Assembly: GCA_964016885.1 (NCBI GenBank)
Contig: OZ024766.1
Span: 10,292,001 to 10,356,000, forward strand
Length of the DNA: 64,000 nt
Direction: 5' to 3'
Source of the DNA: Eledone cirrhosa
Taxonomy: Eukaryota
Made by a program: the position numbers and the translations under genes
In this document: one piece after another, positions 3,712 through 54,083 of the stretch
Position numbering within the stretch: position 1 is the stretch's first letter
Layout: every line of letters starts with the position of its first letter
The notes under the pieces: model-generated
What the model was told of the DNA's origin: nothing
The model's input: the letters and a program-made list of their open reading frames with translations, nothing else
Database searches by the model: none

Positions 3712-3766
3712 ACTGCCTGAAGAGGTCACAGCCAAAGATGGCTGTCACTGAAATATATATAGCAGT
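3712..3766 (+). ncRNA. Type I hammerhead ribozyme (Penelope-type, short palindromic stem III)
   Basis: actgc CTGAAGA ggtcacagcc-aaagat-ggctgtcact GAAA tatata TA gcagt: stem I, core, stem II and cleavage triplet AUA all present. Confidence 0.85.
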
Positions 3767-3812
3767 AATAAACGAAGCTAAATTTTAAACATTTGACTTA
3801 TTTATTTTACTT

Positions 3813-3849
<37 letters not shown>

Positions 3850-4302
3850 GATAAATCTACCAAGAATTTACGGTAGTGTCCAATCCGTATGAAGAACTCA
3901 ATGTATTCCGGATATCATGGAAAGAAGAGATGTAATGAAAAATCACTTTCGGTGAAAGATAAACGGTATACAGAGTCAAGATAAAATATTAAACAAATAA
4001 TGAATAAACAATTCCTTATATTAAACAAAAAAAAAGTTCATTATTTAACGATCGTTTCTAGGATATATATGTGTTAGAATTGGCATGCATATTCAACAGA
4101 TCTATGTACAAAATTATACAAAATTATACAAATTATCAAGATTAAATATAATATATATATTTTGTATAATTTTGTATAATTTTGTACATAGATCTGTTGA
4201 ATATGCATGCCAATTCTAACACATATATATCCTAGAAACGATCGTTAAATAATGAACTTTTTTTTGTTTAATATAAGGAATTGTTTATTCATTATTTGTT
4301 TA

Positions 4303-4341
<39 letters not shown>

Positions 4342-4483
4342 AGATACTATTTATAGCTATGTATATTTTAAACTATAAACAACTATAAACAGGGAAGGTC
4401 AATAATTTATTACCAGTATATATATATATATATATATATAATGTATACACAAAACGTGTTGAAACAGATATTGTTATCTCTTG

Positions 4484-4525
<42 letters not shown>

Positions 4526-4563
4526 CATTCATATATATGCATGCGAGTGTGTGTGCGTGTATG

Positions 4564-4615
<52 letters not shown>

Positions 4616-4653
4616 CATTCATATATATGCATGCGAGTGTGTGTGCGTGTATG

Positions 4654-4705
<52 letters not shown>

Positions 4706-5254
4706 CATACATACATTTGTGGTAATGGATGTCACCAGACTGTGATATATATACATAAGTGTCTGTATCTGTTTAGGAATTGTGTTTATATATACACACA
4801 CACATATATATATAAATATATATATGTATGTATGTATATGTGTGTGTGTATATATATATACACACACAAAGAAACAAAAACATGTATGTAGATAATTTTA
4901 ACCAATTGTAATTACAACCAGGCAATAAAGATTTTAATTTTTGTTTGTTGTTGCTGTTGTTTGTCACAAATACACACTCTCCCTCTCTCTGTGTTTTTCT
5001 CTCAATTACAATATAAAAATCCTTGATTTGACATCTGTTATTTACTTTTACTCTTTTACCTGCTCCAGCCATCCGGCTGAGGCCATGCTTGGGCACCACC
5101 CATGTTGCAACATGTTCTATCTCCAGCCTGTGTTGGCTGGCCATTGGTGTAAGAGGGAGTTCGTTGCTGCTGCTCTTAGGTTACCTTCGTTCGGGATTTG
5201 GGGCTCATCCGGGACCCTGGATAGCAGAGTGTCGAGATGTTTCTTGAAAACATC

Positions 5255-6400
5255 CACACTGAGTTCAAATCCCGCCGAGGTTAACTTTGCCTTTCATCCA
5301 TACGGGGTCGATGAAATAAAGTACCAGTAATACACTGGGTAATTGCTGGCTTTGACGCATAGAGTTACAGCCCTTTCCATTCTGAGTTCAAATCCCGCCG
5401 AGGTTAACTTTGCCTTTCATCCTTACAGGGTCGATAAAATAAAGTACCAGTAATACACTGGGGTAATTGCTGGCCTTGTGACAAAAGTGAAACTATTATT
5501 ATTATATACAAATAGATGTTATGGAGTAGGTAGACCCAGAAAAACATGGGACGACATGATAAATTCCGATCTTACACACTTGCACCTCTCTAAGACAATG
5601 TCACTGGACCGAGATCTCTGGTGCCTTGCAGTATCCACACTGTAATGTGGTCGTGTAGGTGTCACGGCAAAAAAACACACAGTCCACGCTGTAATGTAGT
5701 CATGTAGGTAACACAGTAAAAAGTTCCCAGTCCACACTGTAATGTGGTCGTGTAGGTGTCACGACAAAAAAACACCCAGTCCACACTGTAATGTGGTCAT
5801 GTAGGTAACAGTAAAAACCTCCCAGTCCACACTGTAAACGTGGTTGGTGTTAGGAAGGGCATCCAGCCGTAGAAAACATGCCAGATAGTCCTATACGAGC
5901 GAGACACGGTCACCCGACCAACTTGCCTCAAGTGAGACAAAAATTCCCGTCTAACCCATGCTAGCGTGGTAGACGTTAAACGTTGATGATGATGAGATAA
6001 TAATAATAATTGTTTCTACTTTTGGCACAAGGCCAGCAATTGCACAGTGTATTACTGGTACTTTATTTTATCGACCCCGTAAGGATGAAAGGCAAAGTTA
6101 ACCTCGGCGGGATTTGAACTCAGAATGGCTAGAGATAATAATAATAATTGTTTCTACGTTTGGCACAAGGCCAGCAAAACCCAGTGCATTACTGGTACTT
6201 TATTTTATCGACCCTGTAAGGATGAAAGGCAAAGTCAACCTCGGCGGGATTTGAACTCAGATAAGAGATAATAATAATTGTTTCTACTTTTGGCACAAGG
6301 CCAGCAAATACCCAGTACATTACTGGTACTTTATTTTATCCACCCCGTAAGGATGAAAGGCAAAGTCAACCTCGGCGGGATAAGAGATAATAATAATAAT
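5255..6400. mobile_element. Cluster of a second SINE family: 2 tandem + copies (5255-5505) and 3 tandem - copies (5995-6400)
   Basis: B box gagttcaaatcc, conserved body gcctttcatcc..ggggtcgataaaataaagtaccag, tail ggccttgtgccaaaagtagaaac(aat)n. Confidence 0.8.
5518..5995 (+). mobile_element. RTE family A extreme 3' fragment and UTR
   Basis: YGVGRPRKTWDDMINSDLTHLHLSKTMSLDRDLW followed by the UTR seen at 34120-34500 and a (GAT)n tail. Confidence 0.85.
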
Positions 6401-7748: not shown

Positions 7749-7789
<41 letters not shown>

Positions 7790-11800: not shown

Positions 11801-14800
11801 CCGTCGCATATCCTCTGCAGTTGCTGCCCATGTCTCACTACCATGCAGCATCGCGCTCCTCACACAAGCATCATACAACCGGCCTTTCGTACGCAGGGAG
11901 AAACCCTTCTTCGTCAACAGAGGAAGCAGCTCCCTAAACTTCTTCCAACCCGTCCTTATTCTAGATACTATGGCCTTGGAACACCCTCCTCCCATGCTAA
12001 TCTGATCTCCTAGGTACCGGAAGCTATCCACCACTTGTGTCTATCCAAAAATGTGTCTATCAGTGCGACTTCTACTGTCTAATTTTAACCCTGTTATTTT
12101 AAATATATACTTTATTTTTCCCTCTTCTCCCAGCTGATGGTGAATACTGCGTAAGTTGTGGCAGTGACAAAACCCTTAAATTGTGTGCAGTGATGGTGGT
12201 GGTTGTGGTGTTGGTGTGATATTACTGTTGGTGGTGTGGTGTTGGTGTAGTAGTGGTGTTGTGTTGTGTTGTGGTGGTGGTGTAATGTTGGAGATGTGGT
12301 GTTAACCCTGTTATTTTAAATATATACTTTATTTTTCCCTCTTCTCCCAGCTGATGGTGGTGTTGGTGGTGTTGGTGTAGTAGTGGTGTTGTGTTGTGGT
12401 GGTGGTGTAATGTTGGAGATGTGGTGTTGGTGTAGTAGTGGTGTTGGTGTAGTAGTGGTGTTGTGTTGTGGTGGTGGTGGTGGTGTAATGTTGGAGATGT
12501 GGTGTTGGTGTAGTAGTGGTGTTGTGATATTATTTTTCCCTCTTCTCCCAGCTGATGGTGGTGTTGGTGTGATATTACTGTTGGTGTAGTAGTGGTGTTG
12601 GTGTAGTAGTGGTGTTGTGTTGTGTTGTGGTGGTGGTGTAATGTTGGAGATGTGGTGTTAACCCTGTTATTTTAAATATATACTTTATTTTTCCCTCTTC
12701 TCCCAGCTGATGGCGGTGTTGGTGGTGTTGGTGTAGTAGTGGTGTTGTGTTGTGGTGGTGGTGTAATGTTGGAGATGTGGTGTTGGTGTAGTAGTGGTGT
12801 TGGTGTAGTAGTGGTGTTGTGGTGGTTGTGGTGGTGGTGGTGTAATGTTGGAGATGTGGTGTTAACCCTGTTATTTTAAATATATACTTTATTTTTCCCT
12901 CTTCTCCCAGCTGATGGTGGTGTTGGTGGTGTTGGTGTAGTAGTGGTGTTGTGGTGGTGGTAGTGGTGTAATGTTGGAGATGTGGTGTTGGTGTAGTAGT
13001 GGTGTTGTGGTGGTGGTAGTGGTGTAATGTTGGAGATGTGGTGTTGGTGTAGTAGTGGTGTTGTGGTGGTGGTAGTGGTGTAATGTTGGAGATGTGGTGT
13101 TGGTGTAGTAGTGGTGTTGTGGTGGTGGTAGTGGTGTAATGTTGGAGATGTGGTGTTGGTGTAGTAGTGGTGTTGTGTTGTGGTGGTGGTGGTGGTGTAA
13201 TGTTGGAGATGTGGTGTTAACCCTGTTATTTTAAATATATACTTTATTTTTCCCTCTTCTCCCAGCTGATGGTGAATACTGCGTAAGTTGTGGCAGTGAC
13301 AAGACCCTTAAATTGTGGAACCCCTACCGACAACTACAGCTGAAGACCTACTTAGGACATGGTTCTGAGGTTCTGGACGCTAATTCTGCCTGTGACAATG
13401 CTGCCCTTTGTTCTGGGGGTATGGACAAGTCAGTGATCTTGTGGGACGTGGCTACTGGTCAAGTAAAACGAAAATATAGAGGGCATGCAGGTAAGATTGT
13501 TGGTGGTGTGTGGTGTAGTGTAGTGTAGGTGGTGTGTGGTGTGGTGTAGTGTTGGTGGTGTGTGGTGTGGTGTAGTGTGGTGTGTGGTGTGGTGTGGTGT
13601 AGTGTTGGTGGTGTGTGGTGTAGTGTGGTGTAGTGTTGGTGGTGTGTGGTGTGGTGTAGTGTTGGTGGTGTGTGGTGTGGTGTAGTGTTGGTGGTGTGTG
13701 GTGTGGTGTAGTGTTGGTGGTGTGTGGTGTGGTGTAGTGTTGGTGGTGTGTGGTGTGGTGTAGTGTTTGTGGTGTGGTGTAGTGTTGGTGGTGTGGTGTG
13801 GTGTTGGTGGTGTGTGGTGTGGTGTGGTGTTGGTGGTGTGTGGTGTAGTGTAGTGTAGGTGGTGTGTGGTGTGGTGTGGTGTTTGTGGTGTAGTGTTGGT
13901 GGTGTGTGGTGTGGTGTGGTGTTGGTGGTGTGTGGTGTGGTGTAGTGTAGGTGGTGTGTGGTGTGGTGTAGTGTTGGTGGTGTGTGGTGTAGTGTTGATG
14001 GTGTGTGGTGTGTGGTGTGGTGTAGTGTTTGTGTGGTGTGGTGTAGTGTTGGTGGTGGAGTGTTGGTGGTGTGTGGTGTAGTGTTGGTGGTGTGTGGTGT
14101 GGTGTGGTGTAGTGTTGGTGGTGTGTGGTGTGGTGTAGTGTTGGTGGTGTGTGGTGTAGTGTTGATGGTGTGTGGTGTGTGGTGTGGTGTAGTGTTTGTG
14201 GTGTGTGGTGTGGTGTAGTGTTGGTGGTGTGTGGTGTGGTGTAGCATTGGTGGTGTGTGGTGTAGTGTTGGTGGTGTGTGGTGTAGTGTAGGTGGTGTAG
14301 TGTTGGTGGTGTGTGGTGTGGTGTAGTGTTGGTGGTGTGTGGTGTAGTGTTGGTGGTGTGTGGTGTGGTGTGGTGTTGGTGGTGTGTGGTGTAGTGTTGG
14401 TGGTGTGTGGTGTGGTGTTGGTGGTGTGTGGTGTGGTGTGGTGTAGTGTTGGTGGTGTGTGGTGTGGTGTAGTGTTGGTGGTGTGTGGTGTGGTGTAGTG
14501 TTGGTGGTGTGTGGTGTAGTGTTGGTGGTGTGTGGTGTAGTGTTGGTGGTGTGTGGTGTTGGTGGTGTGTGGTGTGGTGTAGTGTTGGTGGTGTGTGGTG
14601 TAGTGTTGGTGGTGTGTGGTGTAGTGTAGTGTTGGTGGTGTGTGGTGTGGTGTAGTGTTGGTGGTGTGTGGTGTGGTGTAGTGTTGGTGGTGTGTGGTGT
14701 GGTGTAGTGTTGGTGGTGTGTGGTGTGGTGTAGTGTTGGTGGTGTGTGGTGTGGTGTAGTGTTGGTGGTGTGTGGTGTAGTGTTGGTGGTGTGTGGTGTG

Positions 14801-17800
14801 GTGTAGTGTTGGTGGTGTGTGGTGTAGTGTTGGTGGTGTGTGGTGTAGTGTAGTGTTGGTGGTGTGTGGTGTGGTGTAGTGTTGGTGGTGTGTGGTGTGG
14901 TGTAGTGTTGGTGGTGTGTGGTGTAGTGTTGGTGGTGTGTGGTGTGGTGTAGTGTTGGTGGTGTGTGGTGTAGTGTTGGTGGTGTGTGGTGTAGTGTGGT
15001 GTAGTGTTGGTGGTGTGTGGTGTGGTGTGGTGTAGTGTTGGTGGTGTGTGGTGTAGTGTAGTGTTGGTGGTGTGTGGTGTGGTGTAGTGTTGGTGGTGTG
15101 TGGTGTAGTGTAGTGTTGGTGGTGTGTGGTGTGGTGTAGCGTTGGTGGTGTGTGGTGTGGTGTAGTGTTGGTGGTGTGGTGTAGTGTTGGTGGTGTGTGG
15201 TGTGGTGTGGTGTAGTGTTGGTGGTGTGTGGTGTGGTGTGGTGTAGTGTTGGTGGTGTGTGGTGTGGTGTGGTGTAGTGTTGGTGGTGTGTGGTGTGGTG
15301 TGGTGTAGTGTTGGTGGTGTGTGGTGTGGTGTGGTGTAGTGTTGGTGGTGTGTGGTGTAGTGTTGGTGGTGTGTGGTGTGGTGTAGTGTAGTGTTGGTGG
15401 TGTGTGGTGTGGTGTGGTGTAGTGTTGGTGGTGTGTGGTGTAGTGTGGTGTAGTTTTGGTGGTGTGTGGTGTAGTGTTGGTGGTGTGTGGTGTAGTGTAG
15501 TGTTGGTGGTGTGTGGTGTGGTGTAGTGTTGGTGGTGTGGTGTAGTGTTGGTGGTGTGTGGTGTAGTGTAGTGTTGGTGGTGTGGTGTAGTGTTGGTGGT
15601 GTGTGGTGTGGTGTAGTGTAGGTGGTGTGTGGTGTAGTGTTGGTGGTGTGTGGTGTGGTGTAGTGTTGGTGGTGTGTGGTGTGGTGTAGTGTTGGTGGTG
15701 TGTGGTGTGGTGTAGTGTTGGTGGTGTGTGGTGTGGTGTAGTGTTGGTGGTGTGTGGTGTGGTGTAGTGTTTGTGGTGTGGTGTAGTGTTGGTGGTGTGG
15801 TGTGGTGTTGGTGGTGTGTGGTGTGGTGTGGTGTTGGTGGTGTGTGGTGTAGTGTAGTGTAGGTGGTGTGTGGTGTGGTGTGGTGTTTGTGGTGTAGTGT
15901 TGGTGGTGTGTGGTGTGGTGTGGTGTTGGTGGTGTGTGGTGTGGTGTAGTGTAGGTGGTGTGTGGTGTGGTGTAGTGTTGGTGGTGTGTGGTGTAGTGTT
16001 GATGGTGTGTGGTGTGTGGTGTGGTGTAGTGTTTGTGTGGTGTGGTGTAGTGTTGGTGGTGGAGTGTTGGTGGTGTGTGGTGTAGTGTTGGTGGTGTGTG
16101 GTGTGGTGTGGTGTAGTGTTGGTGGTGTGTGGTGTGGTGTAGTGTTGGTGGTGTGTGGTGTAGTGTTGATGGTGTGTGGTGTGTGGTGTGGTGTAGTGTT
16201 TGTGTGGTGTGGTGTAGTGTTGGTGGTGTGTGGTGTGGTGTAGCATTGGTGGTGTGTGGTGTAGTGTTGGTGGTGTGTGGTGTAGTGTAGGTGGTGTGTG
16301 GTGTGGTGTAGTGTTGGTGGTGTGTGGTGTGGTGTAGTGTTGGTGGTGTGTGGTGTAGTGTTGGTGGTGTGTGGTGTTGGTGGTGTGTGGTGTGGTGTAG
16401 TGTTGGTGGTGTGTGGTGTGGTGTGGTGTGGTGGTGTGTAGTGTTGGTGTGGTGTAGTGTAGGTGGTGTGTGGTGTGGTGTAGTGTAGGTGGTGTGTGGT
16501 GTAGTGTAGGTGGTGTGTGGTGTAGTGTTGGTGGTGTATGGTGTGGTGTAGTGTTGGTGGTGTGTGGTGTAGTGTTGGTGGTGTGGTGTAGTGTTTGTGT
16601 GGTGTGGTGTAGTGTTGGTGGTGTGTGGTGTAGTGTAGTGTAGGTGGTGTGTGGTGTGGTGTAGTGTAGGTGGTGTGTGGTGTGTGGTGTGGTGTAGTGT
16701 TTGTGGTGTGGTGTGTGGTGTAGTTTTGGTGGTGTGTGGTGTAGTGTTGGTGGTGTGGTGTAGTGGTGTAGTGTTGGTGGTGTGTGGTGTGGTGTAGTGT
16801 TGGTGGTGTGTGGTGTGTAGTGTTTGTGGTGTGTGGTGTAGTGTTGGTGTGGTGTGGTGTTGGTGGTGTGTGGTGTGGTGTAGTGTTGGTGGTGTGTGGT
16901 GTAGTGTTGGTGGTGTGTGGTGTGGTGTAGTGTTGGTGGTGTGTGGTGTGGTGTAGTGTTGGTGGTGTGTGGTGTGTGTTGTGGTGTAGTGTTTGTGGTG
17001 TGTGGTGTGGTGTAGTGTTGGTGGTGTGTGGTGTAGTGTAGTGTTGGTGGTGTGTGGTGTGGTGTAGTGTTGGTGGTGTGTGGTGTGGTGTAGTGTTGGT
17101 GGTGTGTGGTGTGGTGTAGTGTTGGTGGTGTGTGGTGTGGTGTAGTGTTGGTGGTGTGTGGTGTGTAGTGTTTGTGGTGTGTGGTGTAGTGTTGGTGTGG
17201 TGTGGTGTGGTGTTGGTGGTGTGTGGTGTGGTGTAGTGTTGGTGGTGTGTGGTGTGGTGTGTGGTGTGGTGTAGTGTTGGTGGTGTGTGGTGTGGTGTAG
17301 TGTTGGTGGTGTGTGGTGTGGTGTAGTGTTGGTGGTGTGTGGTGTAGTGTTGGTGTGGTGTGGTGTGGTGTTGGTGGTGTGTGGTGTGGTGTAGTGTAGG
17401 TGGTGTGTGGTGTGGTGTAGTGTAGGTGGTGTGTGGTGTAGTGTAGGTGGTGTGTGGTGTAGTGTTTGTGGTGTGTGGTGTAGTGTTGGTGGTGTGTCGT
17501 GTGGTGTAGTGTTGGTGGTGTGTGGTGTGGTGTAGTGTAGGTGGTGTGTGGTGTGGTGTAGTGTAGGTGGTGTGTGGTGTAGTGTTTGTGGTGTAGTGTA
17601 GGTGGTGTGTGGTGTGGTGTAGTGTTTGTGGTGTAGTGTTGGTGGTGTGTGGTGTGGTGTTGGTGGTGTGTGGTGTGGTGTGGTGTAGTGTTGGTGGTGT
17701 GTGGTGTAGTGTTGGTGGTGTGGTGTAGTGTTGGTGGTGTGTGGTGTGGTGTAGTGTTGGTGGTGTGTGGTGTGGTGTGGTGTTGGTGGTGTGTGGTGTA

Positions 17801-18180
17801 GTGTTGGTGGTGTGTGGTGTAGTGTTGGTGGTGTAGTGGTGGTGGTGTGTGGTGTAGTGTAGTGGTGTGGTGTAGTGTTGGTGGTGTGTGGTGTAGTGTT
17901 GGTGGTGTAGTGGTGGTGGGGTGGTGTTGGTGGTGCGTGGTGTAGTGTAGTGGTGTGGTGTGTGGTGTACTGTTGGTGGTGTGTGGTGTAGTGTTGGTGG
18001 TGGGTGTAGTGTTGGTGGTGTGTGGTGTAGTGTTGGTGGTGTGTGGTGTAGTGTTGGTGGTGTGGTGTGTGTGGTGTAGTGTTGGTATTTTTGCTCAGAA
18101 CACTCCCTGAAACATAAGTATTACATGTGTAAAGTTTGAAAACAGTCGGTTGGGTGCTTCTCGAGCTTTAGGGATACAAA

Positions 18181-18591: not shown

Positions 18592-21255
18592 ACTACAAAT
18601 TTATATGTACTATTTCACACTGTAAAGTGGTCATGTAGGTGTCACAACAAAAAACACCCAGTCCACACTGTAAAGTGGTCATGTAGGTGTCACGACAAAA
18701 AGCACCCAGTCCACACTGTAAAGTGGTCATGTAGGTGTCACAACAAAAAAACACCCAGTCCACACTGTATAGTGGTAGTGTCGGTGTCACGACAAAAAGC
18801 ACCCAGTCCACACTGTAGAGTGGTCATGTAGGTGTCACAACAAAAAAACACCCAGTCCACACTGTATAGTGGTAGTGTCGGTGTCACGACAAAAAGCACC
18901 CAGTCCACACTGTAGAGTGGTCATGTAGGTGTCACGACAAAAAGCACCCAGTCCACACTGTAGAGTGGTCATGTAGGTGTCACGATAAAAAGTACCCAGT
19001 CCTCACTGTAAATGAGGTTGGCGTTAGGTGGGACATCCAGCTGTAGAAACCATGCCAAAGTATGTGTTGCATGTGGTCCTAGATGTGTGTATTATCTGAT
19101 TATGAGTTGTATGTGGTCTCTGGATTGAGAGATCACAGCTCTGATACTATAGACATGTGGTTAGAATATCTCAGGAAAGAATCTCTGAATTGAAAGATCA
19201 CAGCTCTGATACTACAGACATGTGGTTAGAATGTCTCAGGAAAGAATCTCTGAATTGAGAGATCACAGCTCTGATACTATGGACATGTGGTTAGAATGTC
19301 TCAGGAAAGAATCTCTGAACTGAGAGACCATAGCTCTGATACTATAGACATGTGGTTAGAATGTCTCAGGAAAGAATCTCTGGATTGAGAGATCACAGCT
19401 CTGATACTATGGACATGTGGTTAGAATGTCTCAGGAAAGAATCTCTGAATTGAGAGATCACAGCTCTGATACTATGGACATGTGGTTAGAATGTCTCAGG
19501 AAAGAATCTCTGAATTGAGAGATCACAGCTCTGATACTATGGACATGTGGTTAGAATGTCTCAGGAAAGAATCTCTGAACTGAGAGACCATAGCTCTGAT
19601 ACTATAGACATGTGGTTAGAATGTCTCAGGAAAGAATCTCTGAATTGAGAGATCACAGCTCTGATACTATGGACATGTGGTTAGAATGTCTCAGGAAAGA
19701 ATCTCTGAACTGAGAGACCATAGCTCTGATACTATAGACATGTGGTTAGAATGTCTCAGGAAAGAATCTCTGAACTGAGAGACCATAGCTCTGATACTAT
19801 AGACATGTGGTTAGAATGTCTCAGGAAAGAATCTCTGAATTGAGAGATCACAGCTCTGATACTATGGACATGTGGTTAGAATGTCTCAGGAAAGAATCTC
19901 TGAACTGAGAGACCATAGCTCTGATACTATAGACATGTGGTTAGAATGTCTCAGGAAAGAATCTCTGAACTGAGAGACCATAGCTCTGATACTATAGACA
20001 TGTGGTTAGAATGTCTCAGGAAAGAATCTCTGAATTGAGAGATCACAGCTCTGATACTATGGACATGTGGTTAGAATGTCTCAGGAAAGAATCTCTGAAC
20101 TGAGAGACCATAGCTCTGATACTATAGACATGTGGTTAGAATGTCTCAGGAAAGAATCTCTGAATTGAGAGATCACAGCTCTGATACTATGGACATGTGG
20201 TTAGAATGTCTCAGGAAAGAATCTCTGAACTGAGAGACCATAGCTCTGATACTATGGACATGTGGTTAGAATGTCTCAGGAAAGAATCTCTGAACTGAGA
20301 GACCATAGCTCTGATACTATAGACATGTGGTTAGAATGTCTCAGGAAAGAATCTCTGAATTGAGAGATCACAGCTCTGATACTATGGACATGTGGTTAGA
20401 ATGTCTCAGGAAAGAATCTCTGAACTGAGAGACCATAGCTCTGATACTATGGACATGTGGTTAGAATGTCTCAGGAAAGAATCTCTGAATTGAGAGATCA
20501 CAGCTCTGATACTATGGACATGTGGTTAGAATGTCTCAGGAAAGAATCTCTGAATTGAGAGACCACGTCTGGTGGGTTTTCTACGGCTGGATGCCCTTCC
20601 AAACACCAACCATGTTTACAGTGTGTACTGGGAGGTTTTTACCGTGTTACCTACACGGCCACATTACAGCGTGGACTGTGTGTTTTTTTGTCGTGACACC
20701 TACACGACCTCATTTAATTTGGACTGGATGTTATGGTACCAACATAACTTTACAGAGGAAGGGGTGGTGTTGGTGGGAGTGTGGGGGGGGGGGGGGTAGA
20801 GTATGTATATATATGTATATATATATATATAATATATATATATATATATAGGAGGTGAGTTTTATTGTAGTACAATAAAGCAATGCAGATATCGGATAAG
20901 AAGCACTCTACAGTTTGTAGGACTGGAGTATACATAATATATAAGATCAAAAGATGGTTAAAAGAGTTCCATGTATTTTATTATGCGCATTTCAAAAACA
21001 AACATCATCATGCAATAATATTTGTGTTTTCATCAGATAAAACAGGAGAACATGATATGAAGGCTAAAAAACACTTGTGGATAGTGCAGTTTTAAATCAA
21101 CATATGTAAAACTGCACTATCCACAAGTGTTTTTTAGCCTTCATATCATGTTCTCCTGTTTTATCTGATGAAAACACAAATATCATCGCATGATGATGTT
21201 TGTTTTTGAAATGCGCATAATAAAATACATGGAACTCCTTTAACCATCTTTTGAT

Positions 21256-22275: not shown

Positions 22276-22687
22276 CAGAGTACCCGACCTCCCATGGGTA
22301 CAAGCTGAAGCATATAAACAATATGCCCCCACACGCTCCCACTGCAAAGTGGTCGAGGAGGTGCCACGGCAAAAAAGCACCCAGCACTCACTCTAAAGTG
22401 GACGGGTAGGCGCCACGGAAAAAAAAGCACCCAGCACTCACTGTAAATGAGGTTGGTGTTAGGAGGGGCATCCAGCTGTAGAAATCAAGCCAGAATTTTA
22501 TCTGATGAGGACGTACTGTTGAACCTGATTCAAGTACCTCTGAAATATGTATAATAAAATTTAATTGATCACAGGAATATCTATTTTGTTAATATTTGAA
22601 TTTATATTAATAACTCTGGAAAATATTTTCTTGTAGAGTGCTTCCAATCTACTGTAAAACTCATTCTTTGTTTAACTTGTTTAACTC

Positions 22688-33900: not shown

Positions 33901-36900
33901 TGAAAGACGACAACTGCATAAAAAAGTGCAGGGCGATCAAAATTGAGGGTAGTTACGGAGTAGGTAGACCCAGAAAAACCTGGGAAGATCTGATAAATTC
34001 CGACCTTACACACTTACACCTCTCTAAGACAATGTCACTGGACCGAGATCTTTGGCGCTACACAGTAATACAGAAGACCCGCCTTGCCTATGTACAAAGC
34101 GAAACCTACAGTCAGTAGGCACCTCTTAACCAAATATACACCCCCATCCCACTACCCCTACCCTATCCTCCCACTACCACCAACACCAACCTCTCCCTAT
34201 AAAGTTGGTACCACAACATCCAGTCCAAATAAATGAGATAATGATATCGAGTTCGTGTAGGTGTCACGAGAAAAAAAAACACAGTCCACACTGTAATGTG
34301 GCCGTGTAGGTAACACGGTAAAAAAGGCTCCCAGTCCACACTGTAAACGTGGTTGGTGTTAGGAAGGGCATCCAGCCGTAGAAAACCTGCCAGATAGTCC
34401 TATATGAGCGAGACATGGTCACCCGACCAGCCTTGCCTCAAGTGGGACAACTCCCGTCTAACCCATGCTAGCGTGGAAGATGGACGTTAAACGATGATGA
34501 TCATCATCATCATCATCATCAACGTTTAACGTCCGTGTTCCACGCTTGCATGGGTTTGGACGGGGGTAGTCCCACTTGAGGCAAGAGTGATTGTCTTGCT
34601 CGCATAGGACTGTCTGGCAGGTTTTCTACAGTTGGATGCCCTTCCTAACACCAACCACATTTACAGTGTGGGTCTGGGAGGTTTTTACCGTGTTGCCTAC
34701 ACGGCCACATTACAGCGTGGACTGTGTGTTTTTTTGTCGTGACACCTACACGATCTCATTTGTTTCGGCCCGGATGGCGCGGCACCAACATAACTTTACA
34801 TAGGACGGGGTGGTGTGGATGGGGTGGGGGTGGTGGTGGTGGGACGGGGTGTATTTTGTTAGAGATGCCTACTGGCAAGGCGGGTCTTCTCTGTTACTGA
34901 GTACCGCCAAAGGTCTCGGTCCAGTGACATTGTCTTGGAGAGGTGTAAGTGTGTGAGGTCGGAGTTTATCAGCTCGTCCCAGGTTTTTCTAGGTCTGCCT
35001 ATTCCGTGGCTACCGTCTATCTTTATTGCCCTGCACTTTGTTATACAGCTATCGACTTTCATGCGCATCACGTGTCCATACCAACGTAGCCTTCTCTCGA
35101 GTAAACAACATCTGATCCCTCTTATCTCTAATTTTTTCCTTAGTTCGTTTATGCTTTGCCGTTCACGTATATTACTGTTACACATCCAGCGGAGCATGCA
35201 AGCTTCGTTCCTCTCTAGTCTGCGTATATCCTCTGCACACAATGCCCAGGTCTCACTGCCATGCAACATTGCTGTTCGTATGCAGGCATCGTACAACCTG
35301 CCTTTCATTTTTAGGGAGAACCCTTTAGCAGCTAATAGTGGTATAAGCTCTCTGAACTTTTTCCAACCAGTTCTGACTCTAGCTACAGTACTTTCAGAGC
35401 ACCCTCCCCCACTGCTGATTTTATCGCCCAGGTAACGGAAGCTGTCCACTATTTCTATAGAACCCTCTGCGCAATTGAAAGAGCTAGTATTGTGTGGGCA
35501 CTTGCTGCTACTTATTGCACCAGAACACCGGCCACATGTAAAATCTATGTTCTTAGTTAGCTTACCTGTGATCCCACTACATCTTTTATGCACCCATACT
35601 TTGCATTTAGGACACAAAATGGAGTTTCTACCTACGCCTTTCCTACACACCGAGCACGACCATTTCCCAGAAGGGACCGCCGCCTTGTTTTCTTTCCTAC
35701 AAACTAGAACTTTGGTCTTAGCCAGGTTAATTTTAAGTCCTTTTGACTCTAGGCCGTGCTTCCATGTTTGGAATTTCTTCTCTAGCTCGGCCATTGATTC
35801 CGCTATGAGTGTCAGGTCGTCTGCGTATAGGAGTTCCCATGGGCAGCCTGTCTTGAACTCCTCTGTTATAGCCTGAAGGGCAATAATAAATAGTAGGGGG
35901 CTGAGAACAGAGCCCTGATGGACGCCGACTTTTACGCTAAACTCTTCACTATATTCGTTGTTAATTCTAACCTTGCTGACTGTTTCTTTATACATGGCTT
36001 GTATAGCCCTCACAAGCCATTCGTCAACGCCTAGTTTTCTAAGAGCCCACCAGATAATGGAGCGGGGGACTCTGTCGAAGGCTTTCTCCAAGTCGACAAA
36101 AGCTAAGTAGAGGGGTTTACCTTTAGCTAGGTACTTCTCCTGTAGTTGTCGTACTATGAAAAGAGCGTCTGTGGTACTTTTGCCTGACACAAACCCGAAC
36201 TGCATTTCATCTAGGTCAATTCTCTCTCTGATTAGTTGCGCTATTACTTTTTCTGTGACCTTCATGACCTGGTCGATTAATTTAATGCCTCTATAGTTAC
36301 TCCTATCTAGGGCGTCTCCTTTACCCTTATAACAGTTAACGATGATGCTGCTATGCCAGTCCTTCGGAACAACCCCATTCTGTACGACTTGGTTAACTAT
36401 GCGGGTGACCATGGTGTGTCCCACCGTGCCAGATGCCTTCAGCATCTCAGCAACTATTTCCGAAGGCCCAGCCGCCTTACCTGTCTTCATATCCTTGATT
36501 GCCTTACTTATTATACTCCCCTCGACTAACACTGCTGGTCCCTCTATTGGGTCGACATGGGGGAGACTGTCTTTCTCCCATTTATTCTCCTCATTTAGTA
36601 GCCTTTCATAGTGACACTTCCAAGCTGCCTTCTTATCAGTGTCGGTGATGGCAAGTGATTATATATATATATATATGTACATATATATATATATATCGGG
36701 TCATTCTTGAGTGCTACTGGTCACATGTTACCCAGTACAACCTGTCGTATGGTTGGGTTGTCGGCGACTAAACCGGCAACCCCACCAAGTTTACTTGGTG
36801 AGGAGGGTGATTTTGGACAGCCTGCAGGACAAAAACAAAACCTGACAAAGGGCGCAAGAACTCATAAGAGTCAACGGCCATCCAAAAGTGTGTAAATATG

Positions 36901-38384: not shown

Positions 38385-39410
38385 ACCATTAGGTCCTTCG
38401 TCGAAATGGAAAGTTTTCCATCTAACTCTGCGTATAAAGTCGTTTGTTCGCTGTATCATCCCGACGGTATAATCCATTCTCAAATGTATAGGAATGTTCT
38501 TTAGGGACATACCTATGTAATGCTTTTCCATAGTACCGTATGTTTAGGTGGTTGTTCGACCGATAAGGAGCCTGTAGTTAGGGAAGCAGAAAATTGCTTT
38601 TTGTGATCCAGTACGTGGTTAAGAAAGCCAGTTTCATGGATGGTTTCAACGTACAGTTAGGGGTAACTCCACAAGTTTGTAAGAATTCTGTTCAATCTTG
38701 GAGTATAAAGTATAAAAGAGAAAACACAGGTAAGCATTAAGAGAAGGATTTTATCCAGGTATTTACGACCGTTTCATTGGTAAGTGCAACCTTATATTGT
38801 TTTTCCAAATTCACATAGATACAGCAAAATCCTTAACACTAAATCTATTAGACTATCTTACTCCACGGCACCAAATATGGAGGCACACATTAAGATGCTT
38901 AACGCTAAAAAGATACATAACAACACCAAAACACAAATTTACAACAATAACAATACAATCACCATTGAACACAACAGAATATCTAATACACAACCACCCG
39001 CTAATAGGCAAACAAAATGTAACACTTGTACAGGCATCGCAGCCCACCAATAATGCCAAAGTTGCCCATGACAAGAACTGTAACTGCCTCCTACCTGAAA
39101 CCTGTCCATTACAAAATGAAAGTATGCAGTCTAACCTGGTTTACCAATGCACAGTGGAATCAGACAACCAGAAATGGTATTACATCGGAGCGACTGGGAA
39201 TACATTTAAAGCCCGTTGGTATACACACCGTTACGCAATGAAACATTCCCAGCACCGTTATGTAACTACCCTTGCAAACAAGACCTGGCAACTGAGGGAA
39301 AGTAACCATCAATACACCCTGAAGTGGAAAAAATTATCGAACGCGCCCCCATATCGGAGTGTTATGAGAAGCTGTCAATTATGCGACCTTGAGCTGTTCC
39401 ACATCCTGAG
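38385..39410 (+). mobile_element. Penelope-like element: GIY-YIG C-terminal ORF part (+, about 38802-39410) joined to an inverted pLTR/ORF N-terminus (-, about 38800-38385)
   Basis: + strand FPNSHRYSKILN...LSYSTAPN and CNC...CPL...VYQCTV...YIGATGNTFKARWYTH...CQLC; - strand MEKHYIGMSLKNIPI...FIRRVRWKTFHF and a hammerhead 3' half GAAACGGTCGTA. Confidence 0.85.
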
Positions 39411-39629
39411 TGCTGTAATGGAATCTGTGCTGCTGTACGGGTCTGAGACTTGGACACTGACCAAGAAACTCACTCAGATGGTGGATGGGTGCTACACGAG
39501 AATACTGAGGATCCAGCTATAGAAATCAAGCCAGAATCAGTTCCCGTCCCACCCTTGCAAGCAGGGAAAAGCGGACGTAAAATGAAATGAAAAAAAAATG
39601 AAATATGTGAAACCCTTGCAAGCAGGGAA

Positions 39630-41470
39630 AAGCTGCCCATGTCTCACTACCATGCAGCATCGCGCTCCTCACACAGGCATCATACAACTGGCCTTTCGTA
39701 CACAGGGAGAAACCCTTCTTCGTCAGCAGAGGAAGCAGCTCCCTAAACTTCTTCCAACCCGTCCTTATTCTAGATACTATGGCCTCAGAACACCCTCCTC
39801 CCATGCTAATCTGATCTCCTAGGTACCGGAAGCTATCCACCACTTCTATAGTAGCCGCCTGCATTTGAAAAATGTGTCTATCAATGCGACTTCTACTGTC
39901 TAATTTCCCTGTACATCTACTGCATACATATTTCTCCCTACCTGTTAGTTTGCCTGCTATCCCGCTGCATCTCTTGTGTACCCAGGATCTGCATTGTGTG
40001 CATTTTATAGAATTTATGCCAGTTCCTTTTCCGTATATCGAACATGGCCATTTCCCTGACGGAATCAGGGTTTTGTTCTCTTTTCTACTCATCAACACTT
40101 TCGTCTTAGCTAGATTCACTCTCAGTCCTCTTGCTTCCAACTGCTGTTTCCATAACCAGAATTTATTCTCTAGCTCCTCTACTGATTCTGCTATAAGAAC
40201 CAGATCGTCAGCATAGAGAAGTTCCCATGGACAGCCAGTCTTAAACTCCTCTGTTATGGCTTGGGGGACTATAATGAACAAGAGCGGGCTGAGGACCGAA
40301 CCTTGATGTACTCCTACTTGTATCTGGAATTCCTCACTAAACCACATTCCTACCCTGACTTTACTGACAGCACCTCTGTACAAAGTTTGCACTGTTCTCA
40401 CAAGCCATTCCTCTACACCCAGCTTCCTTAGGGACCACCAGATGACAGATCGGGGTGCCCTATCAAAGGTCTTCTCTAGGTCAATAAAGGCTAAGTATAG
40501 TGGCTTATTTTTCTCTAAGAACCTCTTTGCAATTGTCTCACCAAGAAGAGGGCATCTGTTGTACTCTTCCCTGGCACAAAACCAAACTGCATCTCATCTA
40601 GTTTGACCCTTTCTCTAATTAGTTGTGCTAATATCCTTTCTGCCACTTTCATAACCTGATCCATCAGTTTTATACCCCTATAATTGCTCCTCTCCAGAGC
40701 ATCCCCTTTACCTTTGTAGCAATATATGAGAATACTGCTGCACCAGTCTTTGGATATGACACCACCATATATAGCCTGATTGATGATGCGTGCAACCAGT
40801 TTAGTGCCTACGTCCCCTGATGCCTTCAGCATCTCAGCAACTATTCCCGATGGTCCAGCAACCTTACCATTTTTCATTTCCTTAATCGCCTCTTGGACCC
40901 TATATTCGTCAATCTCAATAGCTGGTCCCTCTATCAGATCTACTGAGGGTAATTCTCTCTCTGCCATTCGTTCTCCACATTCATCAGTCTCTCATAATGA
41001 CATTTCCAGGCCTCCTTTTTCTGATCTTTCGTGACACTAAGTACACCGGCATCATCCCGGACACATTTATCTCCAACAACATCCTGATTTGCATTGACAC
41101 ACTGCCTTGCAATGTGGAACACCGCACGCCTCTGATATTCCCGTCGCAGAACATTGACAAACCTCCTACTCTCCGCCTGCCTGCGTGCTAAGTACACCTG
41201 ACGTCTAGCTTCTCTCTTAGTGGCTGTATATTCTTCCCTACTCCCACCCTTTTTCCAAGCCTTCCATGCTAGTCTTTTGTCTCTAATGGCCTTATCTACT
41301 GTGCTGTTCCACCACCAGGTCACTCTCTGTCTGGTTGGAGCCCTGCTCCAACCACAAGTTTCATCAGTAGCCTGCAGCAAGTTGTCACGTAAGAAATTCC
41401 AGTTATTATCTATGTCATACGTCTCTAAATCGTCTTCTTTTTCGTCATATACATCTTGAAGGGCGTTCCT
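39630..41470 (-). mobile_element. RTE LINE (family B) fragment with frameshifts
   Basis: ORFs 40940..41380, 40515..40967 and 39526..40401: TWWWN, QFGFVPGKSTTDA, GVHQGSVLSPLLF, LLYADD, Cys-rich insert. Confidence 0.92.
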
Positions 41471-41755
41471 AAATTATTTATAAAACTGTTTATATATTGT
41501 ATTTTATCTGACGAAGGCATGCCATATTTTAATTTGTCTCTCCTTATTATTTATCTTTCTTTTTTTCTCTCTCTCCTTCTTTTTCTCTCTCCTTTCTCTC
41601 GGTTTTTTCTTTCTCTCCGTTCTTTTTTCTAACTGTGCTTAACACTATAACTAATAAAATAATTATAAACATTTCACTATCCAGACAGCTTCCAAAAATA
41701 ATGGTCGCTTATAATAGGGTACGTCAAAATTATTTATAAAACTGTTTATATATTG

Positions 41756-41820
41756 TATTTTATCTGACGAAGGCATGCCTTATTTTAATTTGGTATCCCT
41801 GAAATATGTATAATGAAATA
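41756..41820 (+). ncRNA. Type I hammerhead ribozyme
   Basis: tattttat CTGACGA aggcatgcc...ggtatccct GAAA tatgta TA atgaaata; a truncated 5' half is repeated at about 41500-41530. Confidence 0.82.
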
Positions 41821-42505: not shown

Positions 42506-42561
42506 ACTGCTATATATATTTAGATGATAGCCATTGAATGGCTACGACCTCATCAGGCAGT
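42506..42561 (-). ncRNA. Hammerhead ribozyme copy with core mutation G12->U (probably inactive)
   Basis: Reverse complement reads actgc CTGATGA ggtcgtagccatt-c-aatggctatcatc TAAA tatata TA gcagt; same family as 3712 with compensatory stem II changes. Confidence 0.7.
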
Positions 42562-46565: not shown

Positions 46566-47070
46566 TTATCCATATAGCTTAAGGAAAGTTCCCGTCCTTA
46601 GGTGTCTGCAGGCACCGAATAAGTCGGCCCTTCTGTTTAATAGCTTGGTTTCGCCATGAAGAATCTCGAGTGTCTCACTAAGACAGAGGTTGCAAATACC
46701 AGACCCTCCTCTGTCTGGGGGGAACCTTTCTAACCACGGACCAGACCAGAGAGTGCGGGGACTTTTCAAGTTTGAGCTTCCAGATCAATTCAGAAAGGGC
46801 CGTACATTTCCTCTTATCTATTCTGTTAAAGGAATGGCGATGGTTATACCACCTATCTTTGAAGCTCGTCGCTGTGGATCCTATGTAATGGTGTTCCGAG
46901 TTAGGGGTTGTGACCTTGCACCTGTAGACCACGTTTTTCGTCATGCATTCATTACTAAGAGGGCATAGTGATGGGTCTCTGCAATTACATGACTTCTTAA
47001 GCCCCACCACATGTACCGCGTGGTTACCATCCCTCGGGGTTGGCTGGGTAGCCTCCGCAATCAGCACAGG
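46566..47070 (-). mobile_element. Penelope-like GIY-YIG endonuclease fragment (frameshifted)
   Basis: CNCRDPSLCPLSNEC...VVYRCKV...YIGSTATSFKDRWYNH, then CNLCLSETLEIL...LLNRR...CRH. Confidence 0.88.
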
Positions 47071-50536: not shown

Positions 50537-50937
50537 TCAATCCTGGTAGTATTTATAATATGAAAATGTAGATTTTAAGCGATGGTTACAGTATAACGAT
50601 CGCTGAATTCTGTTATTTAATAAAATGTTTTTGGATTTCATAATACAAAATAATTCCACATTACATAATTTACAAAATTCCTGTCCATGGGTTATGGAGG
50701 GGCAGCTGCTATTATATCCCATTTTAGGTGAAATTGTTGGTTATTTTCACGCAGCTGCCAAGCCTTGTCTGCGAGTGTTGTTACATAACGCTGGTTTTCA
50801 TGTTTTATCGAGTAGCGATGTCTATAAAGGCGTGATTTGAAGGAGGTGGCTGTAGATCCCACATAGTACCACTTCTGTCTATCCGATTCGATAGTACATT
50901 TGTATACGATGTTGCGTTCAAGACACTGATTGTTCAA
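50537..50937 (-). mobile_element. Penelope-like GIY-YIG endonuclease fragment (frameshifted)
   Basis: CLERNIVYKCTI...YVGSTATSFKSRLYRH, then CKLCNVELFCI...LLN...CNH. Confidence 0.88.
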
Positions 50938-50989
50938 TGTGTCTTGAACGTGTTCAAGACTGTTTTTTAACCTTCATATCATGTCTTCC

Positions 50990-51060
50990 TATTTTATCTG
51001 ATGAAAACACAAATATTATTGCATGATGATATTTGTTTTTGAAATGCGCATAATAAAATA
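50990..51060 (+). ncRNA. Type I hammerhead ribozyme next to a GIY-YIG fragment
   Basis: tattttat CTGATGA aaacacaaatattatt-gcat-gatgatatttgttttt GAAA tgcgca TA ataaaata. Confidence 0.85.
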
Positions 51061-51231
51061 CATGGAACTCTTTTAACCATCTTTTGATCTTATATATTAT
51101 GTATACTCCAGTCCTACAAACTGTAGAGTGCTTCTTATCCGATATCTGCATTGCTTTATTGTACTACAATAAAACTCTCCTACATATATATATATATATA
51201 TATATTATTTGTCTGTCTGGCTCTCTCTCTC

Positions 51232-51284
<53 letters not shown>

Positions 51285-51431
51285 AATGAGTCATGTTTAA
51301 AATTTGGCTTTGTTTATTACTGATATATATATGAAATAACAACCCAACCAGGAACTGGGCATATCAGAGTGCTCCAATCTGCATACTGAGGTGTTGGTAT
51401 ACAACCAACATATACTCAAAATTTATATATA

Positions 51432-51772
51432 TCATCATCATCATCATTTCATTTTACGTCTGCTTTTCCCTGCTTGCAAGGGTGGGACGGGAACTGATTC
51501 TGGCTTGATTTCTACAGCTGGATGCCCTTCCTAACACCAACCTCATTTACAGTGAGTGCTGGGTGCTTTTTTGCCGTGGTACCTACAGACCACTTTGCAG
51601 TGGAATGATAGGGACACCAGTCCCTATCATCTCATTTCTACAGCTGAGTAAACTGGAGCAATGTGAAATAAAGTGTCTTGCTCAAGGAAACAACACATCA
51701 CCCGGTCTGAGAATTGAACTCACAACCTTTCGATTGCAAGGCCAATGCTCTAACCACTAAGCCATGTGCCTC

Positions 51773-51773
<1 letters not shown>
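51432..51773 (-). mobile_element. Same SINE family
   Basis: Reverse complement of the 54186 type. Confidence 0.85.
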
Positions 51774-51820
<47 letters not shown>

Positions 51821-52153
51821 TACACATACACACACAATATATAAACATTTATGTTTGTCAGACTTCCAACAAATTAAATACAACTTCTACTTATATATAT
51901 ATATATATATATAAAGTAAGTCCAAAATATCTCATTAGATAAAATATATACAGTATTTCTTCTCCCAATCAGTATAAATCAACCACACAAAAAATATTGA
52001 TACCCTGTTATTTCTCTGAGGAACTGGAATCAGATCATATGAATCCAGTTCCTCAGAGAAATAACAACCCAACCAGGGGCTGGACATATCGGAGTATTGA
52101 CGGAGTAAAACACTTTAACAACATGTGTACCTGTCTCTATCACACCAATTCAG

Positions 52154-52208
52154 ACTGCCTGAAGAGGTCGCAGCCAAAGATGGCTCTCACTGAAATATAT
52201 ATAGCAGT
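52154..52208 (+). ncRNA. Type I hammerhead ribozyme (family of 3712)
   Basis: actgc CTGAAGA ggtcgcagcc-aaagat-ggctctcact GAAA tatata TA gcagt. Confidence 0.78.
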
Positions 52209-52377
52209 ACATCTTTAATAAACGAAGCCAAATTTTAAATATTTGACTTAATTACTTTATTTCACATTACTCCGGAGTAACCAAACCAACCTGCGTACTT
52301 CGTTGAGTGCTCCAAACTGCATTCTGAGGTATCGGTAAACAACCAACATATACTCAGAATATATATATATATATGGA

Positions 52378-53350
52378 CGAAGAAGGGTTTCTCCCTGCGT
52401 ACGAAAGGCCGGTTGTATGATGCCTGTGTGAGGAGCGCGATGCTGCATGGTAGTGAGACATGGGCAGCTACCGCAGAGGATATGCGACGGCTGGAGAGAA
52501 ATGAGGCAAGCATGCTCCGTTGGATGTGCAGTGTCAATGTGCGTGAACGACCCAGCATAAATGTGTTGAGAGAGAAACTGTGTCTGAGAGGGATAGAATG
52601 TAGTGTGCGGGAGAGGAGACTGAGGTGGTATGGACATGTGATGTGTTGAGAGAGAAACTGTGTCCGGGAGGGATAGAATGTAGTGTACGGGAGAGGAGAC
52701 TGAGGTGGTATGGACATGTGATGTGTTGAGAGAAAAACTGTGTCTGAGAGGGATAGAATGTAGTGTACGGGAGAGGAGACTGAGGTGGTATGGACATGTG
52801 ATGTGTTGAGAGAGAAACTGTGTCTGAGAGGGATAGAATGTAGTGTGCGGGAGAGGAGACTGAGGTGGTATGGACATGTGATGTGTTGAGAGAGAAACTG
52901 TGTCTGAGAGGGATAGAATGTAGTGTACGGGAGAGGAGACTGAGGTGGTATGGACATGTGATGTGTTGAGAGAGAAACTGTGTCTGAGAGGGATAGAATG
53001 TAGTGTGCGAGAGAGGAGACTGAGGTGGTATGGACATGTGATGTGTTGAGAGAGAAACTGTGTCTGAGAGGGATAGAATGTAGTGTACGGGAGAGGAGAC
53101 TGAAGTGGTATGGACATGTGATGCACCTGGAGGATGACCGATGGGTGAAGAAATGCCAGGAAATGCCAGTTGAAGGAAGACGTGGTAGAGGTAGACCAGG
53201 AAAAACATGGGCGGAGGTGGTGAGAACAGACCTCAGATCATTGAAGCTCACGGTGGAGATGACGAGGGACCGTGACGAGTGGAGAATAAGATCCGTCCCA
53301 CCCTTGCAAGCAGGGAAAAGCGGATGTAAAATGATGATGATGATGATGAT
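52378..53350 (+). mobile_element. RTE LINE (family B) 3' fragment with the same internal 80-bp unit x7
   Basis: ORFs 52413..52649 and 53025..53411; (GAT)n tail. Confidence 0.92.
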
Positions 53351-53776
53351 GGAGGCACATGGCTTAGTGGTTAGAGCATTGGCCTTGCAATATATATATA
53401 AAGTTTCATGAAATAGTCTTTTTAGACTATACAGAGCATTTGAGGTTTTTCCAAATTGAAGGATGAGTATTTAAACTTTATTTTATTCTTTACTCTATTG
53501 GTTTCTTACCTGGATTTCACAAAATCTGTGGATAAAATCTCTTTCTTCATTTTTTAAAAATTGAGTTTGAATAATTTTCCCATATTTAAATATTTTCTAT
53601 TTTGACGTTATAGTCACTTATATATTATGAAATACTTGTTTCTACTTTAGGCACAAGGCCAGCAATTACTCAGTGCATTACTGGTACTTTATTTTATCGA
53701 CCCCGTATGAAATACTGTTGGCTTCACGCTCACAATAATTTCTATATTTTCATTTATATATATATATATATGTATA

Positions 53777-53813
<37 letters not shown>

Positions 53814-53895
53814 GTTATTCCGGGTTAAATCGGAGGTAACCACAGTAAGTAAGGTACTCAATACATAGCAGAGTATAAAAGTTTTAATATAGATG

Positions 53896-53946
53896 AGATT
53901 CTACAGGACTAGAACTGTTTCATTCTTTAGAAATCATCAGGAATCT
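53896..53946 (-). ncRNA. Minimal type I hammerhead ribozyme (GUA triplet)
   Basis: Reverse complement reads agattc CTGATGA tttc-taaa-gaat GAAA cag-ttctagtc-ctg TA gaatct. Confidence 0.72.
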
Positions 53947-54018
53947 GGATATCAAAAATATATATATATATAGATACGATATATTAACAAATGTAAACTA
54001 TATTTATAAAACCATATT

Positions 54019-54083
54019 TATTTCATTATACATATTTCAAGGACACCAAGTTAAATTATGGTGTGCTTTCATCAGATAAAATA
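54019..54083 (-). ncRNA. Type I hammerhead ribozyme (family of 41756)
   Basis: Reverse complement reads tattttat CTGATGA aagcacacc...ggtgtcctt GAAA tatgta TA atgaaata; half copy at about 49383-49413. Confidence 0.82.

What the first reader, a model, noticed from the sequence alone, without database searches (positions are those of the whole stretch)
3712..54083. Conserved C-C (or C-U) mismatch at the fourth pair of hammerhead stem II across unrelated families
Seen by pairing stem II outward from the core: 3712 GGU[C]ACAGCC/GGCUGU[C]ACU; 42506 GGU[C]GUAGCC/GGCUAU[C]AUC; 22494 GGA[C]GUAC/GUAC[C]UCU; 41756 AGG[C]AUGCC/GGUAU[C]CCU; 54019 AAG[C]ACACC/GGUGU[C]CUU; 21159 and 50990 AAA[C]ACAAA/UUUGU[U]UUU; the decayed 2825 copy also keeps C-C. 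The flanking pairs covary freely while the 3-bp spacing and pyrimidine mismatch stay fixed, and most copies have U rather than the canonical C at 11.1. Inference: a selected structural element, such as a tertiary contact with stem I, a dimer contact or a protein-binding site, defining a hammerhead subtype I do not know as described.
Basis: partly seen in the sequence, partly recalled or inferred. Interest (0 to 1): 0.85.

Follow-up and report, generated by a model that had tools for sequence, protein, structure and literature searches.

The report
Jumping-gene ribozyme keeps one unpaired cytosine
About 110,000 copies of a small self-cutting RNA motif in this animal genome, left by one branch of Penelope-like jumping genes, keep the same cytosine unpaired in the middle of an otherwise paired helix, which likely marks a contact point these ribozymes need in order to work.

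Summary
Observation confirmed, rule corrected. All eight named motifs are type I hammerhead motifs with an 8-nt palindromic (dimer-type) stem III and a mismatch at stem II pair 4. The genome pattern gives 123,679 hits: C·C 83,099, C·U 25,640, C·A 4,196, C-G 816. The rule is 'C10.4 fixed, partner anything but G', not 'pyrimidine mismatch'; three amplified subfamilies carry C·A. Pair 4 is unpaired in 13 of 13 family representatives; pairs 2, 3, 5, 6 pair in 52 of 52 cells. The families are not unrelated: the seven tied to a protein form one Hydra-clade Penelope-like branch (97/95), down to 40% protein identity. The mismatch is absent from the genome's other hammerhead class as sampled, 29 metagenome relatives and 26 published Hydra-clade rows. 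U11.1 is an already listed clade trait. Selection is likely; the contact partner is unknown, and no cleavage or expression was shown. Not found in print in ten searches, but Lünse 2017 could not be read. The scan noted Penelope hammerheads before (shark, ray), not this mismatch.

The parts
3712..3766 (+). Type I dimer-type hammerhead motif, GGUC-ACAG family; C·C at 3727/3746; predicted cut after 3761
2829..2878 (+). Decayed hammerhead motif, UAUC/UGUC family; C·C at 2839/2863; stem I lost. An inverted truncated copy starts at 2718 (minus)
20974..21044 (-).
21157..21227 (+). Hammerhead motif, AAAC family; C·U at 21175/21204; palindromic stem III AUGCGCAU
22493..22562 (+). Hammerhead motif, GGAC family; C·C at 22512/22538
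41756..41820 (+). Hammerhead motif, AGGC family; C·C at 41774/41797. A truncated copy starts at 41508
42506..42561 (-). Hammerhead motif, GGUC-AUAG family; C·C at 42546/42526; core G12 changed, so likely dead
46593..46998 (-). Broken GIY-YIG endonuclease and CxCX5C linker of a Hydra-clade Penelope-like element; other copies of this family carry the GGUC-AUAG hammerhead downstream
50692..50940 (-). Fragment of a Hydra-clade endonuclease, inverted next to the 50990 hammerhead
50990..51060 (+). Hammerhead motif, AAAC family; C·U at 51008/51037
52154..52208 (+).
54019..54083 (-). Hammerhead motif, AAGC family; C·C at 54065/54042
55474..55516 (-). Counter-example: short-stem II hammerhead motif of the other class, C-G at pair 4 (also 53909-53941 minus and 58186-58218 plus)

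Best explanation
These are type I hammerhead motifs in the terminal repeats of one branch of Hydra-clade Penelope-like retrotransposons, and their long stem II keeps cytosine 10.4 unpaired, likely as a docking point that helps stem II pack against stem I when two copies pair up to cut. Shown: the motif, its place about 1 kb after and about 0.3 kb before the element's reading frame, the single protein clade, and the C-opposite-C/U/A rule. Inferred from known Penelope hammerheads: the palindromic stem III pairs between tandem copies, and the dimer cuts the element's RNA after residue 17. Inferred and untested: a stem II of 8-12 pairs moves loop II away from stem I, so the usual loop contact is lost, and the 1x1 internal loop after three pairs would supply a substitute, probably through backbone or groove contacts because no invariant partner base exists outside the core.
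For: Pair 4 unpaired in 13 of 13 family representatives, pairs 2, 3, 5, 6 paired in 52 of 52 cells with two-sided changes. C10.4 is the only invariant position of 32 in stems I and II. The partner changed to U once and to A in three lineages, and no amplified C-G family with a long stem was seen; nine repaired copies (C-G or G-C) of one family scatter among five unrepaired ones. The mismatch lowers predicted pairing of the core-proximal pairs from 0.67-1.0 to 0.0-0.97, so it is kept at a cost. The seven linked families form one clade spanning about 2.5 amino-acid changes per site (identities 40-74%). G·U pairs fall on the sense strand (12 against 1 A·C), so the RNA strand is the folding one. 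Long-stem relatives outside the clade conserve a different signature in the same zone: U10.2-A11.2 in 12 of 12 and G10.3·U11.3 in 8 of 12, against 1 of 17 in short stems. The mismatch lies about where loop II starts in canonical hammerheads, whose helix II has 4 pairs (PMC4209133).
Against: No biochemical or structural data. No invariant base in stem I or flanks, and no U fixed at 1.6 or 1.7, so the known U1.7-loop II contact (PMC11875169 passages) is not conserved. On the seven-family tree, zero change at 10.4 alone is weak: other stem II positions change 2.1 times on average (Poisson about 0.12, my arithmetic) and 10.7 also shows zero. One origin means one independent event. Relatives with fully paired 10-pair stems II exist, so a long stem does not need a mismatch. 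C at 10.4 is also common in short-stem families. A small U·C subfamily among the 10,346 non-C hits is not excluded.
Confidence: 0.4

Rival explanations
1. The unpaired cytosine is read by the element's own reverse transcriptase-endonuclease protein (or a host protein), which chaperones the ribozyme or picks the RNA for copying.
For: The Anolis Penelope-like hammerhead cut only when the element's protein was added (PMC11167929, section read). The mismatch tracks one protein clade. A fixed base with a free partner and no RNA partner base fits protein read-out.
Against: Linkage to one protein clade is expected of any feature of the element. In Anolis the proposed binding site is a different stem-loop. 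No binding data.
Confidence: 0.3
2. The mismatch is a hinge or brake: it weakens the three pairs next to the core so that single copies stay inactive or reverse transcriptase passes more easily.
For: Predicted cost 2.6-6.7 kcal/mol, with the proximal pairs under 0.5 probability in 8 of 13 representatives. Any partner but G is tolerated.
Against: A brake does not need a C: U·C is one transition away and C10.4 often sits in a mutable CpG, yet 13 of 13 families keep C.
Confidence: 0.15
3. Inherited accident or a primary-sequence (DNA or promoter) signal: one ancestor had C·C and it has not yet changed, or the C is kept for a reason unrelated to folding.
For: Single origin; position 10.7 is also unchanged in the seven linked families; the terminal repeats of these elements carry promoters (PMC6765202 passage).
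Against: Upstream flanks align well in only 1 of 21 family pairs and ungapped flank positions are saturated (2.6 changes each). At least three partner changes avoided G although pairing is favoured in every neighbouring column.
Confidence: 0.15

Closest known systems
Hammerheads of Hydra-clade Penelope-like elements (Craig et al. 2021, PMC8557442, section 11 and File S2 read)
   Same: Same host clade by protein motifs (RW, DKT, CxCX5C, CxxC..E..N..CxH); type I, 3-4 pair palindromic stem III, U·U or G·U at the first stem II pair, insertion in (TA)n.
   Different: 0 of 26 listed rows has C opposite C, U or A at pair 4 (25 paired, 1 loop; my reading), including the one octopus family listed. Stem III starts A-C there and A-U here.
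Minimal hammerheads (min-HHR) of metazoan Penelope-like elements (Cervera and De la Peña 2014, PMC4209133; parts 1-2 of 4 of the text and parts 1-2 of 3 of the supplement read)
   Same: Type I, longer than usual helix II, palindromic helix III, dimer model, place in the terminal repeats.
   Different: Consensus there has a bulged base after A9 and G10.1-C11.1; here no bulge and mostly U11.1. No C·C at pair 4 in 56 rows; one sea urchin row has C·A at pair 4, possibly a one-copy CpG change. Their search descriptor defined helix II as a stem and could have missed this class.
Short-stem III hammerhead variants that cleave as dimers (Lünse, Weinberg and Breaker 2017)
   Same: Penelope association and dimer cleavage, as cited in PMC6765202 and PMC6466107.
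   Different: Paper not held; nothing of it was seen, so whether its alignments show this mismatch is open.
Canonical type I hammerheads (Schistosoma type, retrozymes)
   Same: Full catalytic core CUGANGA / GAAA and a UH cleavage site.
   Different: 4-pair stem II with a loop that contacts stem I; here 3 pairs, a 1x1 loop, then 4-12 more pairs, and no fixed U1.7. Rfam listed no hammerhead match at 3650-3850 up to E 10, nor among the 150 rows shown of 184 for the window.

Membership tests
Type I hammerhead ribozyme | Core CUGANGA and GAAA with NUH site | tested here: met
   Intact in 8 of the 10 full-length mismatch copies of the window; 42556 has G12 changed and 2829 has lost stem I
Type I hammerhead ribozyme | Stems I and II supported by covariation | tested here: met
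   42 cells with two-sided change, 0 of 500 shuffles as high; slid controls 30-52% paired against 87.7% (relatedness inflates the shuffle test)
Type I hammerhead ribozyme | Self-cleavage | not testable with these tools
   No raw RNA reads were offered; RNA contigs did not cover the motif
Canonical (loop-contact) type I hammerhead | 4-pair stem II with loop II contact to U1.7 | tested here: not met
   Long stem II; positions 1.6 and 1.7 vary
Dimer-type Penelope hammerhead | Palindromic stem III, unstable as a monomer hairpin | tested here: met
   13 of 13 palindromic; monomer A15.1-U16.1 probability at most 0.1; duplex -2.2 to -10.5 kcal/mol
Dimer-type Penelope hammerhead | Predicted two-strand fold pairs through stem III | tested here: inconclusive
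   2 of 5 two-strand folds pair through the palindrome, 3 do not, and none gives the full double hammerhead
min-HHR consensus (Cervera 2014) | Bulged base after A9 and G10.1-C11.1 | tested here: not met
   No bulge; G-C at pair 1 in 1 of 13 representatives
Hydra-clade Penelope-like element | RW(K), DKT, CxCX5C linker, CxxC and CxH around E and N, C-terminal GIY-YIG | tested here: met
   Seen in L053, L050, L043, L030 translations against the definition; RWI or RWT in place of RWK
Hydra-clade Penelope-like element | Groups with the reference Hydra elements in a reverse transcriptase tree | not tested
   Reference proteins were not fetched; only a Hydra vulgaris hit at 35% identity
Hydra-clade Penelope-like element | Hammerhead in terminal repeat, tandem and inverted copies, (TA)n targets | tested here: met
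   L053 hammerhead then reading frame; L171, L172, L170 frame then hammerhead with inverted copy; (TA)n flanks

The most novel reading that the evidence does not exclude
A new natural way to stabilise a hammerhead: a C·H internal loop three pairs from the core replaces the loop-loop contact and switches on dimer cleavage, while long-stem relatives use a G·U wobble at pair 3 for the same job. This would give the missing tertiary (or protein) contact of Penelope hammerheads, in a subtype with over 100,000 genomic copies.
Probability: 0.3. Interest if true: 0.65.

Novelty: new variant of a known kind. Interest (0 to 1): 0.42.

Why it matters
Penelope hammerheads lack the known tertiary contacts, cut slowly in vitro, and one needs its element's protein (PMC4209133, PMC11167929). 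How they become active is open. A single base held unpaired at a fixed place across proteins only 40-55% identical gives a one-mutation test of where the missing contact lies. The class is also invisible to the Rfam scans run here, so paired-stem searches likely undercount hammerheads in such genomes. It does not change hammerhead chemistry or the known link to Penelope elements.

Tried and rejected
Rfam: no hammerhead family listed. Apparent exception: L165/L299 placed a short fully paired hammerhead behind a protein inside the clade; other copies showed this was an unrelated insertion, and 2 of 5 carry the AAGC mismatch motif downstream, the other 3 showing none within the cut. Strand flip: C·C reads G·G on the other strand and wobbles favour the sense strand. 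Fixed partner G outside the core: none; pairing of C10.4 with the stem III palindrome fails because several families have no G there. Repaired subfamily: nine repaired copies of GGUC-ACAG (seven C-G, two G-C) do not form their own group, though only five unrepaired copies were compared. Linking TATC, GCTC, AATC, GAGC, TGTC and GAAC-AUG families to a protein failed, so 6 of 13 representatives are unplaced. Viral contigs: no protein relative; 3 pattern hits lacked stem I. Expression: two RNA runs matched only a low-complexity patch; no evidence either way. The control for the C..G pattern (1,600) exceeded the count (816), so that control is not informative. Lünse 2017 and Martick and Scott 2006 were not held.
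Full report
Observation. Each motif has the hammerhead core, a stem I of 5-9 pairs (none in the decayed 2829 copy), an 8-nt palindrome in place of stem III, and a stem II of three pairs, a mismatch and further pairs. Two more copies (21036 minus, 52159 plus) and three truncated ones were found. Three hammerhead motifs in the window do not have the mismatch.

Genome counts. G000 is a 3.0-Gb genome. Named protein relatives come from an octopod and from Hydra, so a cephalopod is my inference. A pattern blind to pair 4 gave 123,679 hits against 4,736 reversed. Split by pair 4: C·C 83,099, C·U 25,640, C·A 4,196, C-G 816, non-C at 10.4 10,346 with control 2,535. The parts sum to 124,097 because one start can match several ends. 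Only the first 100 rows of each search were seen. By eye, the C-G rows are single mutants of mismatch families, chance hits and separate short-stem families. The non-C rows are chance hits, nested cores and single mutants. The C·A rows are different: about half are one near-identical GGAC subfamily, 9 an AGUC family and 6 a GAAC subfamily; fetched copies have intact flanking pairs. So the rule is C10.4 opposite C, U or A. A second hammerhead class, with stem III starting A-C, is as large (130,554 against 10,631); 19 of its 21 printed contexts pair at position 4 and none has C opposite C, U or A.

Covariation. Clustering 130 distinct contexts, filtered without regard to pair 4 but drawn partly from pattern-selected loci, gave 22 clusters, 19 with C·C as majority. 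I chose 13 representatives by hand. Pair 4 is unpaired in 13 of 13; pairs 2, 3, 5 and 6 pair in 52 of 52 cells, with flips such as U-A, A-U and G-C at pair 3. Pair 5 is always purine-pyrimidine, which transitions alone could explain. C10.4 is the only invariant of 32 stem I and II positions. The mismatch costs 2.6-6.7 kcal/mol in predicted folding. In contigs of two DNA-like runs laid on the AAAC family, six stem II places varied at 3% or more and neither mismatch position did; these runs may be the same or a close species.

Host element. Reading frames next to the motifs carry the marks of the Hydra clade of Penelope-like elements (against PMC8557442 section 11). Seven families were tied to a protein by position; GGAC and GGUC-ACAG first rested on one locus each, and L336 adds a second for the GGAC lineage. 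In a 37-row tree they form one clade, 97/95 (21 of the metagenome rows kept, seven rows under half filled, midpoint root); an endonuclease-only tree gave 96. Five families of the same genome without the mismatch fall outside; two of those links rest on one locus. Endonuclease identity within the clade is 40-74%. Upstream flanks align well only between AAAC and GAAC. The families are therefore relatives, but old enough that unconstrained sites have turned over.

Strength of the selection argument. Zero change at 10.4 on the seven-family tree is not significant alone (mean 2.1 changes at other stem II positions; 10.7 also zero). The case rests on invariance over 13 families, on at least three partner changes that avoided G, and on the scatter of repaired copies. 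Copy counts add little, since copies decay neutrally after insertion. I put selection at about 0.85.

Outgroups. Of 77 metagenome loci with related proteins, 42 had a hammerhead motif by one filter and 40 by a stricter one, giving 29 non-redundant motifs, none with C opposite C, U or A at pair 4. The 12 with stems of six or more pairs all have U10.2-A11.2 and G10.3, with a G·U wobble in 8; these are related, so not independent. File S2 of PMC8557442 lists 26 Hydra rows: none has the mismatch and 18 have U11.1 (my reading). U10.1·U11.1 is also described in PMC3088659 and PMC7229834 (passages). The 56-row alignment of PMC4209133 has no C·C at pair 4 and one C·A row.

Mechanism. Dimer cleavage through the palindrome follows from known Penelope hammerheads (PMC4209133) and from the unstable monomer stem III; two-strand folding was mixed. 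For the mismatch I favour an RNA docking point (0.4) over protein read-out (0.3; PMC11167929), a brake (0.15) and accident or DNA signal (0.15). From recall, not from a call: G·U wobbles often serve as helix-packing sites, which is why the outgroup signature weighs toward docking. No cleavage, expression or structure was shown here.

Literature. Ten searches, including 'hammerhead + C-C mismatch', 'hammerhead ribozyme + octopus' and 'pyrimidine mismatch + stem II', listed no paper on this feature; most hits were seen as listings only. Figures are not held. Lünse 2017 and its alignments could not be read and are the main risk to novelty. bioRxiv 10.64898/2026.07.22.740005 was read in part 1 of 5 only. 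Earlier scan notes held Penelope hammerheads of other genomes but not this mismatch.

Verdict. Real, lineage-specific and likely selected; a new variant of a known kind; interest 0.42.

Noticed in passing
L184-L260 (metagenome loci), also L261:1226: Hydra-clade hammerhead motifs with long stem II keep U10.2-A11.2 (12 of 12) and a G10.3·U11.3 wobble (8 of 12, against 1 of 17 short stems); possibly a second docking signature.
   Followed up: partly
G000, genome-wide: Two patterns give about 254,000 hammerhead-like hits, about 239,000 above their controls, an unusually large load.
   Followed up: partly
L261-L297 (for example G000:C1:319428447-319430546): Many intact 713-719 aa Hydra-clade reading frames in three families, with fully paired hammerheads; likely recently active.
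   Followed up: partly
L291:1250-1340 (minus), same in L292-L294, L297, L298: The 713-aa family carries a hammerhead-like motif with core CAGAAGA (U4 to A) in all six copies seen, with a longer stem III region.
   Followed up: no
G000:C1:1239857-1244284 and 5388706-5389666: Tandem arrays of about 311-bp units each with a short-stem hammerhead: retrozyme-like.
   Followed up: no
window 53909-53941, 58186-58218, 55474-55516: Short-stem II hammerhead motifs of the other class, each with U·U at the first pair and C-G at the fourth.
   Followed up: partly
window 23494-24575, 32917-33813, 34859-36658, 39526-41473: LINE-type reverse transcriptase fragments, two followed by a PHD finger.
   Followed up: no
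window 39004-39447 (+): Endonuclease fragment of a separate Hydra-clade family, sister to L094, outside the mismatch clade.
   Followed up: partly
window 13430-18167: About 4.7 kb of G/T-rich tandem repeat with GC skew near 1.
   Followed up: no
L092, L087, L031 (GGAC family): A second CUGANGA sits inside the stem II arm of some GGAC copies, giving nested pattern hits.
   Followed up: no
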